DNA of 5,777 bases from a virus (Monodnaviria; Loebvirae; Hofneiviricota; Faserviricetes; Tubulavirales). The stretch's first letter is position 1, and every line of letters begins with the position of its first letter. Below are positions 587-5,777 of this stretch, one piece after another. Location of the stretch: the IMG/VR virus record IMGVR_UViG_2579778634_000001. One strand, 5' to 3'. The notes under the pieces are model-generated. The model had not been told where the DNA came from. It did not search any database and saw only the letters and a list, made by a program, of their open reading frames with translations. Position numbers and translations under genes: made by a program.

Positions 587-609
587 AGCGCCCTCCGGGG
601 CGCTTTTTT
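587..609 (+). terminator. Rho-independent terminator downstream of the major coat gene
   Basis: Perfect GC stem GCGCCC (588-593) / GGGCGC (598-603) with 4-nt loop TCCG, extended by an A587-T604 pair, followed by a T6 run (604-609). Ff phages carry a strong terminator at the same position after gVIII. Confidence 0.8.
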
Positions 610-622
610 AATCATACCAGGA

Positions 623-2221
623 GTGTTTTTTTTGATTCACTTTATTATTCCGCTTCTGTTTTTGTTCTTTTCCTCGTTTTCTTTCGCTGAAGAGAAAGAA
701 AATCCGGATGCACTTGTTCAGTGTGCAGGCCATTCATCCTGCAGGACAGATTATTCGGACGCGGGGACGTCGATTAAATTAGCCAGGGCGGCCGGTCATC
801 TTTTCTGTGGTTCGGGCAATTATGACGCATGTTCCGGAATAATTCATTATTGTGGTGTGCCACTTTCAACGCCTGTTAATGCACCTTCGACTGTCGGGTC
901 TTTTGTCCGTGCCCGGTGGTCAGCATATAAAGTCTGGGATTCAGACAAGCAAAAGTGGACAGCCTGCACCCTTGCTTTTCAGGGTGGTGAGGGGGATTTG
1001 ACACCTGAATATAATAAGCCGCCAACTGACGAGATTTGTCTTTCTCGTCCGGTTCTTGATGGTATGACTTTTTCTGATGTTTATAAAGGTGATGACGGGA
1101 CCCGTTATGTTAATGTGCAGGGGTGTATTTATGAGGCAACCGGCAATCCTCTTATTTGTAATCCCGATGATGATACAGTTTGTACTGCCGACTGGAAACC
1201 AGTTGCTGTAGATCCTGCATTCTCCGATGGTAAGGAGGATGGCGGTAGCTCAGGTGGTGGCAGTTCCGGTGGTGGTAACCCAGGCGGCGGCAGTTCCGGT
1301 GGTGGTTCAGGTTCTGGCTCCGGTGGTTCATCCGGTAGCGGTGGCTCCGGCTCGGGTTCCGGCGGCTCATCCGGCAGTGGTGGTTCAGGTTCTGGCTCCG
1401 GTGGTTCATCCGGTAGCGGTGGCTCCGGCTCGGGTTCCGGCGGCTCATCCGGCAGTGGTGGTTCAGGTTCTGGCTCCGGTGGTTCATCCGGTAGCGGTGG
1501 CTCCGGCTCGGGTTCCGGCGGCTCATCCGGCAGTGGTGGTTCAGGTTCTGGCTCCGGTGGTTCATCCGGTAGCGGTGGCTCCGGCTCGGGTTCCGGCGGC
1601 TCATCCGGCAGTGGTGGTTCAGGTTCTGGCTCCGGTGGTTCATCCGGTAGCGGTGGCTCCGGCTCGGGCTCCGGCGGTTCATCCGGTAGCGGTAGTTCAG
1701 GTTCAGGATCCGGTGGCTCATCCGGCGATGACAATGGCTGGCTTGATGGTATTTTGGGCTGGTTAAAAACAATATGGGTGTCAGTGAATGATTTAAATAA
1801 TGCTTTTTCTGTTTCTCAGGCTGATATGAATAATGCATTAAATTCACTGGACAATGGTATTAAAGATATTAGTCAGAATATAGCTTCTTCTTTGCCTGAT
1901 GGGGATTTCCCTTTAGGGGAGCTTTCGCATTATTTGCCAGGACAGGGAAGTGAGAGTCATGATAATAACAATTGGCTTACAGTTAATATTGACAAACTGG
2001 TAAATACAAATAATGGAACTGCTCTTCCTTTTACTTTACAGTTTAGCTTTAATCTTCCGTTGATTGGCGCGATTAATTTCAAGATTGATACAAGCCATTT
2101 TGCAAAAGCTTATGACGATTATGTTCGTTCTGTTCTTGAATATGCTATTTATATGATAACCATGTTACGCGTTTTTGTTATTTCTCGCCGTACATTATTT
2201 GAACGTGAGGTAAAACTCTGA
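623..2221 (+). CDS. gIII: Adsorption / minor coat protein pIII-like (532 aa): signal peptide, Cys-rich N-terminal domain, N1-like segment, long Gly/Ser linker, C-terminal anchoring domain
   Basis: GTG 623 overlaps SD AGGAG (619-623), so the in-frame TTG 632 with 8-nt spacing is an alternative start (M13 gIII also uses GTG). Signal-like FFLIHFIIPLLFLFFSSFSFA. Segment GCIYEATGNPLICNPDDDTVCTADWKPV resembles the M13 pIII N1 segment GCLWNATGVVVCTGDETQCYGTWVPI (recalled). Gly/Ser linker as in Ff pIII. Hydrophobic C-terminal segment (LEYAIYMITMLRVFVI). Stop TGA 2219-2221 overlaps the gVI ATG. Confidence 0.88.
   Translation: MFFLIHFIIPLLFLFFSSFSFAEEKENPDALVQCAGHSSCRTDYSDAGTSIKLARAAGHLFCGSGNYDACSGIIHYCGVPLSTPVNAPSTVGSFVRARWSAYKVWDSDKQKWTACTLAFQGGEGDLTPEYNKPPTDEICLSRPVLDGMTFSDVYKGDDGTRYVNVQGCIYEATGNPLICNPDDDTVCTADWKPVAVDPAFSDGKEDGGSSGGGSSGGGNPGGGSSGGGSGSGSGGSSGSGGSGSGSGGSSGSGGSGSGSGGSSGSGGSGSGSGGSSGSGGSGSGSGGSSGSGGSGSGSGGSSGSGGSGSGSGGSSGSGGSGSGSGGSSGSGGSGSGSGGSSGSGGSGSGSGGSSGSGSSGSGSGGSSGDDNGWLDGILGWLKTIWVSVNDLNNAFSVSQADMNNALNSLDNGIKDISQNIASSLPDGDFPLGELSHYLPGQGSESHDNNNWLTVNIDKLVNTNNGTALPFTLQFSFNLPLIGAINFKIDTSHFAKAYDDYVRSVLEYAIYMITMLRVFVISRRTLFEREVKL
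1243..1728 (+). repeat. Tandem direct repeats encoding the pIII Gly/Ser linker: 78-bp unit, four perfect copies (1301-1612), one slightly diverged copy (1613-1690), degenerate flanks
   Basis: Seen directly: unit ggtggttcaggttctggctccggtggttcatccggtagcggtggctccggctcgggttccggcggctcatccggcagt starts at 1301, 1379, 1457 and 1535 (perfect) and 1613 (3-4 substitutions). Each unit is two 39-bp halves encoding the same 13-aa GGSGSGSGGSSGS with different codons. This also explains the long shadow ORFs on the - strand and in other frames. Confidence 0.95.
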
Positions 2222-2594: not shown

Positions 2595-3809
<1,215 letters not shown>

Positions 3810-3810
3810 G

Positions 3811-4530
<720 letters not shown>

Positions 4531-4559
4531 TATCTTCATGACTGAAAAACAGCACTTAA

Positions 4560-5777
<1,218 letters not shown>

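What the first reader, a model, noticed from the sequence alone, without database searches (positions are those of the whole stretch)
632..1242. pIII N-terminal region is a divergent Cys-rich domain fused directly to an N1-like segment
Residues ~24-150 (about 10 cysteines, for example VQCAGHSSCRTDY, HLFCGSGNYDACSGIIHYCG, WTACTLAF) have no counterpart I can match to M13 pIII. They are followed, without an intervening glycine linker, by a segment resembling the M13 TolA-binding N1 core (GCIYEATGNPLICNPDDDTVCTADWKPV). The putative receptor-binding domain therefore precedes N1, the reverse of the Ff N1-linker-N2 order, and there is a single linker. The primary receptor (pilus type) of this phage cannot be inferred from sequence and may differ from the F pilus.
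Basis: partly seen in the sequence, partly recalled or inferred. Interest (0 to 1): 0.55.

Follow-up and report, generated by a model that had tools for sequence, protein, structure and literature searches.

The report
IKe-style phage attachment protein, orphan tip domain
The attachment protein of an E. coli filamentous prophage carries a real but unrecognisable 112-residue domain in front of a standard TolA-binding domain; this layout is already known from phage IKe, so only the tip domain and its unknown receptor are new.

Summary
Gene III (TTG at 632 to 2221) encodes: signal peptide 1-19; an orphan domain D1 (20-131, six Cys); a full N1/TolA-binding homologue D2 (132-199, four Cys); one 166-residue Gly/Ser linker; and a C-terminal anchor domain. 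D2 passes Pfam PF05357, matches IKe chain 4eo1 at E=4e-13, and its model superposes on IKe, IF1 and M13 N1. The order [quoted passage not shown] is the reverse of Ff but is the same as IKe, I2-2 and PEar g3p. In those phages N1 lies at precursor residues 127-196 and the N-terminal domain is solved as 4eo0. The architecture is therefore not new. D1 itself is an orphan. An exhaustive search of 1.84 billion proteins found two clusters of relatives. It shows no relation to the IKe pilus-binding domain, and AlphaFold fails on it. A weak resemblance to InlB B-repeats is inconclusive. D1, D2 and the C-terminal domain reassort freely among related prophages through a conserved ~46-nt junction. D1 is most likely the primary-receptor-binding module; the receptor is unknown.

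The parts
587..612 (+). Intrinsic-terminator-like hairpin plus T-run between gene VIII and gene III
   Evidence: 7-bp stem with 6 GC pairs, followed by TTTTTT. IKe has an annotated stem-loop at the same place.
619..634 (+). AGGAG ribosome-binding site (619-623) and TTG start codon (632-634) of gene III
   Evidence: sequence. PGAP starts the CDS at this position in NZ_CM128593. The GTG at 623 overlaps the RBS.
632..688 (+). Signal peptide (residues 1-19, MIHFIIPLLFLFFSSFSFA)
   Evidence: Hydrophobic N-terminus ending in SFA. It is conserved in relatives. The cleavage site is inferred.
689..1024 (+). D1: orphan 112-residue domain with six Cys (residues 20-131); putative primary-receptor-binding module
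   Evidence: No hit in Pfam, PDB or the phage records. Only two related clusters in 1.84 billion proteins. Separate evolutionary history from D2.
976..1021 (+). Nearly invariant junction (encodes FQGGEGDLTPEYNKP) where D1 and D2 cassettes are exchanged
   Evidence: this stretch is conserved in all five variants. L009 is identical to the window up to 1021 and then switches to the other D2 type.
1025..1228 (+). D2: N1 / TolA-binding-domain homologue with four Cys (residues 132-199)
   Evidence: PF05357 at 35.5 bits. 4eo1 at E=4e-13, 2x9a at 5e-8, 1fgp at 4e-7. Model pLDDT 65-80. Foldseek TM 0.79-0.83 with rmsd 1.4-2.2 A.
1229..1726 (+). Single Gly/Ser linker of 166 residues (89 Gly, 72 Ser), built from 78-nt tandem repeats at 1299-1725
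   Evidence: Linker length ranges from 80 to 169 residues in relatives.
1727..2221 (+). C-terminal domain with hydrophobic anchor (residues 366-529) and stop codon
   Evidence: Matches the C-terminal part of phrog_17820 at E=5e-7. Three reassorting types exist among relatives. No Pfam hit.

Best explanation
Window 632-2221 encodes the adsorption protein (g3p/pIII) of a temperate inovirus of human-associated E. coli. It is built like the IKe protein rather than the Ff protein: signal peptide, tip domain D1, short acidic/proline connector, N1-type domain D2, one long Gly/Ser tether, and a C-terminal domain that anchors it in the virion cap.

Proposed mechanism:
1. D1 makes first contact with a host surface structure. 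That structure is unknown; a retractile pilus is the usual case for inoviruses.
2. D2 then binds the C-terminal domain of periplasmic TolA.
3. The C-terminal domain mediates membrane insertion and uncoating.

D1 and D2 are independent beads, as in IKe and IF1. They are not an interlocked pair as in fd. Together with the C-terminal domain they are exchanged as cassettes between related prophages through conserved junction sequences, which probably changes host range or escapes superinfection exclusion.

What is shown: the domain boundaries, the N1 homology and fold of D2, the IKe-like order, the orphan status of D1, and cassette exchange. What is inferred: receptor binding by D1, TolA binding by D2, and a C31-C37 / C67-C74 / C59-C112 disulfide pairing.
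For: Gene context:
- The gene order is gVIII-like, gIII, gVI-like, Zot/gI, secretin.
- A terminator precedes gIII, as in IKe.

D2 is an N1 domain:
- Pfam above the gathering score.
- 4eo1 at E=4e-13.
- 44% identity to IKe g3p over residues 125-198 in the numbering of the alternative GTG start at 623, which runs three residues ahead of the TTG numbering used elsewhere.
- The model superposes on IKe, IF1 and M13 N1, including the TolA complexes 2x9a and 1tol.
- The four Cys are spaced as in fd N1.

Same order as IKe:
- IKe N1 lies at precursor residues 127-196.
- The IKe N-terminal domain is solved as 4eo0.

D1 is a separate module:
- L009 and L016 join the window's D1 (99% identical) to a different D2 (42-44% identical).
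- Eight combinations of D1, D2 and C-terminal type were seen among the loci compared.
- D1 has dS 0.28-0.50 while the adjacent D2 has dS 0.022 in the same genes.
- The crossover falls in the invariant 976-1021 stretch.

D1 is under selection and is not decaying:
- dN/dS is 0.33-0.61.
- Cys59, 67, 74 and 112 are invariant in every D1 type. Cys31 and 37 are kept in all but the L007 type, which lacks them as a pair.

D1 diverges faster than D2: 75% vs 94%, 71% vs 94%, and 27% vs 61% identity to the window.
Against: - No binding data exist, and no receptor candidate was identified.
- D1 could not be modelled: pLDDT 30-47 in one run and 39.7 in the other. Nothing structural supports an adhesin-like fold.
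- Overall dN/dS is below 1, so diversifying selection is not demonstrated.
- For related temperate enterobacterial inoviruses (Ypf-phi, CUS-1) no receptor is known either, and knocking out candidate pilus genes did not block infection (PMC4266046). A pilus receptor should therefore not be assumed.
- D2 is closest to the IKe domain. From memory of Jakob et al. 2012, that domain binds TolA only weakly.
Confidence: 0.65

Rival explanations
1. D1 is a very diverged homologue of the IKe/I2-2 N-pilus-binding domain. The whole N-terminal half would then be simply a distant Lineavirus-type g3p that targets a conjugative pilus.
For: The position and size are the same: ~110 residues directly before N1, joined by an acidic/proline connector. 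D2 is closest to IKe N1.
Against: hhalign of the D1 family against the IKe/I2-2/PEar domain gives 0.1% probability. The divergent L007 D1 gives 0.15%. The Cys patterns differ: six Cys here against two in IKe. The phage backbone also differs: a 667-aa replication endonuclease and chromosomal integration.
Confidence: 0.1
2. The first ~65 residues of D1 are a diverged, disulfide-stabilised InlB-B-repeat-like module (PF18998). That module is common in bacterial surface proteins and would have been captured by the phage, with a lineage-specific beta-hairpin extension tied on by the third disulfide.
For: - The exhaustive phmmer search hit P0009, a protein of seven PF18998 repeats, at E=3e-6.
- BLASTP gives 35-41% identity to each repeat, with four Cys and the GT.V.L.A...G..F.G...ACSG....C motif in register.
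- hhalign gives 40% probability against the P0009 repeats.
- Against 248 repeats hhalign gives 28% probability and score 24.1. The best of 40 column-shuffled controls scored 13.5, and the reversed control scored 10.4.
Against: - There is no Pfam hit at E<=10.
- The deep repeat HMM gives the window's D1 only 9.8 bits, and gives 0.8-3.3 bits to the divergent members P0008, L006 and L007. Composition-matched shuffles reach 8-14 bits.
- P0010, an unrelated repeat protein, also reached E=3e-4. This shows that repeats inflate the score.
- Only one of the very many PF18998 proteins was hit.
Confidence: 0.25
3. D1 is not a receptor binder. It is an accessory or shielding domain, for example one that masks the TolA site or acts in assembly or superinfection exclusion. 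On this reading D2 or the C-terminal domain determines specificity.
For: No direct evidence exists for D1 function. D2 also comes in very different types, including an 'alt' type only 35% identical to N1 with no Pfam hit, so D2 could carry specificity.
Against: Cassette exchange of D1 against two D2 types argues against a tight D1-D2 regulatory interface. In every characterised g3p the non-N1 N-terminal domain is the primary receptor binder (Ff N2, IF1 N2, IKe N-terminal domain; established knowledge). D1 is the most distal and fastest-diverging module.
Confidence: 0.1

Closest known systems
g3p of Lineavirus phages IKe, I2-2 and PEar (PDB 4eo0 for the N-terminal pilus-binding domain, 4eo1 for the TolA-binding domain)
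   Same: The domain order is identical: signal peptide, ~110-residue tip domain, acidic/proline connector without Gly linker, N1-type domain at residues ~127-196, one Gly-rich linker, C-terminal anchor. The N1 domain is 44-47% identical and has the same fold.
   Different: - The tip domain is unrelated in sequence (hhalign 0.1%) and has six Cys instead of two.
- The linker is about three times longer.
- The C-terminal domain matches a different PHROG family (17820, not 4150).
- The phage is a chromosomally integrated temperate inovirus with a different replication module, not a plasmid-pilus-dependent lytic-style coliphage.
g3p of Ff phages (M13, fd, f1; PDB 1g3p, 2g3p, 1tol)
   Same: It has an N1 TolA-binding domain (39% identity, four Cys conserved), a Gly/Ser linker and a C-terminal anchor.
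   Different: In Ff, N1 comes first and is followed by a linker, the F-pilus-binding N2, and a second linker. Here there is no N2 homologue and a single linker, and N1 is the second domain.
g3p of phage If1 (PDB 2x9a, 2x9b)
   Same: The N1 fold gives the best structural match (TM 0.83). The domains are independent rather than interlocked (from memory of Lorenz et al. 2011).
   Different: If1 has the Ff order, with N1 first and then an I-pilus-binding N2.
Adsorption proteins of temperate dif-integrating inoviruses (CTX-phi pIII; Ypf-phi / CUS-1 PuvA)
   Same: The lifestyle is the same. The window-type prophage sits in tandem copies next to hipBA, the gene pair that from memory flanks dif in E. 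coli K-12; no dif site was located here. The receptor of Ypf-phi is likewise unknown, with TolQRA proposed as co-receptor (PMC4266046).
   Different: No sequence similarity to D1 was detected anywhere outside its own small clade. This phage encodes its own secretin.
Divergent InlB B-repeat domain (Pfam PF18998)
   Same: The motif and the four-Cys register are shared with the first ~55 residues of D1.
   Different: The similarity is below accepted thresholds and is not shared by divergent D1 members.

Membership tests
Phage_Coat_A / g3p N1 TolA-binding domain (PF05357) | Profile score above Pfam's gathering threshold | tested here: met
   35.5 bits against a cut-off of 20.8, E=8.4e-9. 4eo1 matches at E=4e-13.
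Phage_Coat_A / g3p N1 TolA-binding domain (PF05357) | Four conserved cysteines (two disulfides) with fd-like spacing | tested here: met
   C136, C165, C176 and C184 align with fd C7, C36, C46 and C53.
Phage_Coat_A / g3p N1 TolA-binding domain (PF05357) | N1 beta-barrel fold | tested here: met
   Model pLDDT 65-80. Foldseek TM 0.79-0.83 and rmsd 1.4-2.2 A to 4eo1, 2x9a and 2x9b.
Phage_Coat_A / g3p N1 TolA-binding domain (PF05357) | Binds the C-terminal domain of TolA | not testable with these tools
   Inferred from homology only.
IKe-type (Lineavirus) g3p | Order: tip domain, N1, single Gly-rich linker, C-terminal domain | tested here: met
IKe-type (Lineavirus) g3p | N-terminal domain homologous to the IKe pilus-binding domain (4eo0) | tested here: not met
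   hhalign probability 0.1% and 0.15%. No PDB sequence hit for residues 1-131.
IKe-type (Lineavirus) g3p | C-terminal domain homologous to that of IKe | tested here: not met
   The C-terminal domain matches only phrog_17820 and not phrog_4150. Whole-protein identity to IKe is 26% and comes mainly from N1 and the linker.
Ff-type g3p (N1-linker-N2-linker-CT) | N1 at the mature N-terminus, followed by an N2 pilus-binding domain and two linkers | tested here: not met
   N1 is at residues 132-199. There is no N2 match and only one linker.
Divergent InlB B-repeat (PF18998) | Significant profile match | tested here: inconclusive
   No Pfam hit at E<=10. A custom HMM scores at noise level. hhalign gives 28-40%, which is above shuffled controls.

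The most novel reading that the evidence does not exclude
D1 is a previously undescribed receptor-binding fold. It directs a temperate E. coli inovirus to a chromosomally encoded surface structure rather than a conjugative pilus. Its alleles (at least six types, 27-99% identical) are swapped as cassettes through a conserved 46-nt junction to change host range or evade superinfection exclusion. It may have originated from a bacterial B-repeat surface-protein module.
Probability: 0.3. Interest if true: 0.5.

Novelty: new variant of a known kind. Interest (0 to 1): 0.3.

Why it matters
Receptors of temperate enterobacterial inoviruses are essentially unknown, even though these prophages sit in human gut and diarrhoeal E. 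coli isolates. D1 is a defined, exchangeable 112-residue cassette next to a recognisable TolA-binding domain, and natural chimeras already exist. That makes it a clean handle for receptor hunting, using D1 pull-downs, D1 swaps on M13 display, or Tn-seq for resistance. It may also be of use for retargeting filamentous phage. The domain order itself adds nothing new, because IKe already established it.

Tried and rejected
- **Characterised phage match.** Megablast of the whole window against 50,697 phage records found nothing. tblastn of residues 1-208 found only N1 matches.
- **Word-indexed protein search with D1 and with a D1 profile.** It returned only 4-6 E. coli fragments. Every protein returned across the three searches was 162 residues or shorter, so full-length g3p proteins seem not to be reachable this way.
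- **AlphaFold.** It was run twice: D1+D2 with 5 sequences, and D1 alone with 7. D1 reached pLDDT 29-47 and 39.7. Foldseek on the D1 model gave only noise, with best E=2. No fold assignment is possible.
- **Relation to the IKe pilus-binding domain.** Rejected.
- **B-repeat lead.** It was followed with the last large search and with offline controls, and remains inconclusive.
- **P0010 hit (RTX repeat protein).** Judged a repeat-inflated false positive.
- **phrog_34046 hit to D1.** At E=0.0097 it is too weak to use.
- **Literature search for an open-access statement of the IKe domain order.** None found. The point rests on the PDB chains and the IKe record, plus memory of Jakob et al. 2012 (Mol Microbiol 84:1124) and Endemann et al. 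1992.
- **Single-strand fold of the 91-nt repeat.** It is no more stable than shuffles (z=-0.11).

Full report
**What the window is.** The 5,777-base window carries the structural and assembly module of an inovirus. It holds a small coat-protein-like ORF (329-571), a 529-residue ORF (632-2221) and a gVI-like ORF (2221-2580). These are followed by a Zot/gI protein (2598-3809), a repeat-filled spacer, and a secretin (4569 to the end).

It matches no deposited phage genome. It is 99.6% identical to a prophage present as tandem copies next to hipBA in the chromosome of E. coli strain 100416, from human stool in the Gambia. Related prophages occur in other human E. coli isolates and on a Citrobacter youngae plasmid.

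**Checking the observation.** The GTG at 623 overlaps the ribosome-binding site. A terminator-like hairpin at 587-604 separates gene VIII from gene III, as in IKe.

In TTG numbering the protein divides as follows:

| Part | Residues | Window coordinates | Cys |
|---|---|---|---|
| Signal peptide | 1-19 | 632-688 | 0 |
| D1 | 20-131 | 689-1024 | 31, 37, 59, 67, 74, 112 |
| D2 | 132-199 | 1025-1228 | 136, 165, 176, 184 |
| Gly/Ser linker | 200-365 | 1229-1726 | 0 |
| C-terminal domain | 366-529 | 1727-2218 | 0 |

The linker holds 89 Gly and 72 Ser and is encoded by 78-nt tandem repeats.

Homology to N1 actually begins at TDEICLSRP (residue 132). The unmatched domain is therefore residues 20-131 with six Cys, not 24-150 with ten.

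**D2 is a true N1 domain.**
- Pfam Phage_Coat_A scores 35.5 bits against a gathering score of 20.8.
- The PDB sequence search gives IKe chain 4eo1 at E=4e-13, IF1 chain 2x9a at 5e-8 and fd chain 1fgp at 4e-7. All hits are confined to this segment.
- In an AlphaFold model this segment has pLDDT 65-80.
- The model superposes on the TolA-binding domains of IF1, IKe and M13 with target-normalised TM 0.79-0.83 and rmsd 1.4-2.2 A.

TolA binding itself is inferred, not shown.

**The domain order is not new.** In the IKe record, gene III starts at 2082 and the N1 match lies at 2460-2669. That corresponds to precursor residues 127-196.

The IKe, I2-2 and PEar proteins read: signal peptide, ~107-residue domain, acidic/proline connector with no Gly run, N1, one Gly-rich linker, C-terminal domain. 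The first IKe domain is solved as 4eo0, covering mature residues 1-109. The second is 4eo1, titled "TolA binding domain from the filamentous phage IKe".

PHROG families 4150, 8516 and 22527 also carry the N1 segment at profile positions 136-218, whereas the Ff-type family 8482 has it at 21-80. A paper on the PEar phages recalls that Peeters et al. already noted translocated stretches in IKe gene III relative to Ff (PMC7697814). So "receptor domain first, N1 second, one linker" is the known IKe-type layout.

**D1 is an orphan.**
- It has no Pfam hit at E<=10, no PDB sequence hit and no phage-record hit.
- An exhaustive phmmer search of 1.84 billion cluster representatives found only two related clusters (90% and 53% identity) plus two repeat proteins.
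- Among 185,579 species-representative genomes there is one hit. It is a 3.9-kb MAG contig carrying a different inovirus backbone.
- IMG/VR holds 12 close relatives.
- Only 19 of 5,426 complete E. coli genomes carry D1, and all are human isolates.
- Profile-profile comparison with the IKe/I2-2/PEar tip domain gives 0.1% probability.
- AlphaFold fails on D1, with pLDDT 29-47 and 39.7. The resulting fold search is noise.

**A possible distant relative.** One of the four exhaustive-search hits, P0009, consists of seven "divergent InlB B-repeat" domains (PF18998). D1 residues 8-62 (mature numbering) align to each repeat at 35-41% identity, with four Cys in register.

hhalign gives 40% probability against the P0009 repeats. 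Against a 248-repeat alignment it gives 28% probability and score 24.1. The best of 40 column-shuffled controls scored 13.5, and the reversed control scored 10.4.

However, an HMM built from those repeats gives the window's D1 only 9.8 bits. It gives near zero to the divergent D1 members, while composition-matched shuffles reach 8-14 bits. I treat this lead as unproven, at about one chance in four.

**D1, D2 and the C-terminal domain are exchangeable cassettes.** The loci compared gave the following types; the P0008/L023 D1 type comes from a truncated gene and was not part of the module table.

| Module | Types seen | Identity to the window |
|---|---|---|
| D1 | six | 99-100%, 77%, 74-77%, 71%, 51-53% (P0008/L023), 27% (L007) |
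| D2 | four | window N1 (100%), 94% variant, 61% variant, "alt" type at 42-44% |
| C-terminal domain | three | 96-100%, 47-49%, 48-50% |

The L007 D1 type is still significantly related (E=5e-7) and keeps four of the six Cys. The "alt" D2 type aligns with N1 at 35% identity in BLASTP with all four Cys in register (E=1e-5), but has no Pfam hit.

These types occur in eight combinations. The Citrobacter plasmid copy has the window's D1 at 99% identity, joined to the alt D2 and a different C-terminal domain.

Synonymous divergence confirms separate histories. D1 has dS 0.28-0.50 while D2 has dS 0.022 in the same genes. At the DNA level D1 is 80-84% identical where the adjacent D2 is 97.6% identical.

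The crossover lies in a nearly invariant stretch at 976-1021, which encodes FQGGEGDLTPEYNKP. D1 has dN/dS of 0.33-0.61. Four of its Cys are invariant across all types, and the other two are missing only in L007, as a pair. It is therefore a constrained, functional domain and not decaying sequence.

**Most likely mechanism.** By position, independence and rate of change, D1 is most likely the primary-receptor-binding module. D2 is the TolA-binding co-receptor module, the linker is a flexible tether, and the C-terminal domain is the virion anchor and entry module. This is the IKe and IF1 style of independent domains rather than the interlocked fd N1-N2 pair.

The receptor cannot be inferred. For the related temperate phages Ypf-phi and CUS-1 it is also unknown, and knocking out candidate pilus genes had no effect (PMC4266046).

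**Verdict.** The "reversed order" is already textbook for IKe. What is new is an orphan tip domain in a known slot, with clear evidence of cassette exchange. I rate this a new variant of a known kind, of modest interest.

Noticed in passing
window 3823-3913, 4162-4252, 4474-4564 (inside a 312-nt tandem duplication at 3918-4529): Three copies of a 91-nt unit lie between gene I and the secretin gene. Its first ~60 nt are about 95% identical to a segment of small ColE1-type (Rop/Mob) plasmids such as pSL476_3 (~3196-3262, near rop), and more than 300 plasmids are hit. From memory this is the ori-rop region of pBR322 that holds a PriA (n') primosome assembly site, so it may serve as a complementary-strand initiation signal. 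There is no Rfam hit, and the + strand fold is no better than shuffles. Relatives L005, L006 and L010 lack the expansion.
   Followed up: partly
L005 273-1238, L006 569-1534, L007 563-1540, L010 569-1534, compared with L004 5204-5392: Related prophages carry an IS110-family (RNA-guided) transposase directly upstream of the replication endonuclease. They sit at different chromosomal sites (yjhF, yoaA/yoaB, hcxB/ybiB), often with a DUF2726 gene after the secretin. The window-type prophage has a small 62-aa ORF there instead and sits next to hipBA, which from memory flanks dif in E. coli K-12. These look like two alternative integration modules on one phage backbone.
   Followed up: no
L004 5204-21543; L009 1-13846: The prophage is present as head-to-tail tandem copies in E. 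coli 100416 and on a 363-kb conjugative IncHI1B/IncFIB Citrobacter youngae plasmid. Some E. coli genomes hold up to four D1-bearing copies. Strain 700481 also carries a second prophage with a different D2 type.
   Followed up: partly
window 1299-1725: The Gly/Ser linker is a 78-nt tandem array of 5.5 copies at 97% match. Its length varies from 80 to 169 residues among otherwise near-identical g3p genes; strain 100416 has 78 residues fewer. This is probably replication slippage.
   Followed up: partly
L023 (JAUMZL010000036.1) 3503-3945: The only D1 homologue among species-representative genomes (51% identity) lies on a 3.9-kb contig binned as an Aerococcus MAG. The contig carries an inovirus with a different replication protein and is probably mis-binned from an enterobacterial phage.
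   Followed up: partly
window 3604-4555, both strands: Several 50-150-aa ORFs with repeated peptide sequences lie inside the 312-nt duplication. PGAP annotates one of them in strain 100416 (L004 11907-12131, minus strand). They look like by-products of the repeat rather than genes.
   Followed up: no
L008 4773-6218: In E. coli 377323_2f the L007-type gene III is split into fragments annotated as a pseudogene and separate ORFs. The cause may be a frameshift or an assembly error in the repetitive linker.
   Followed up: no
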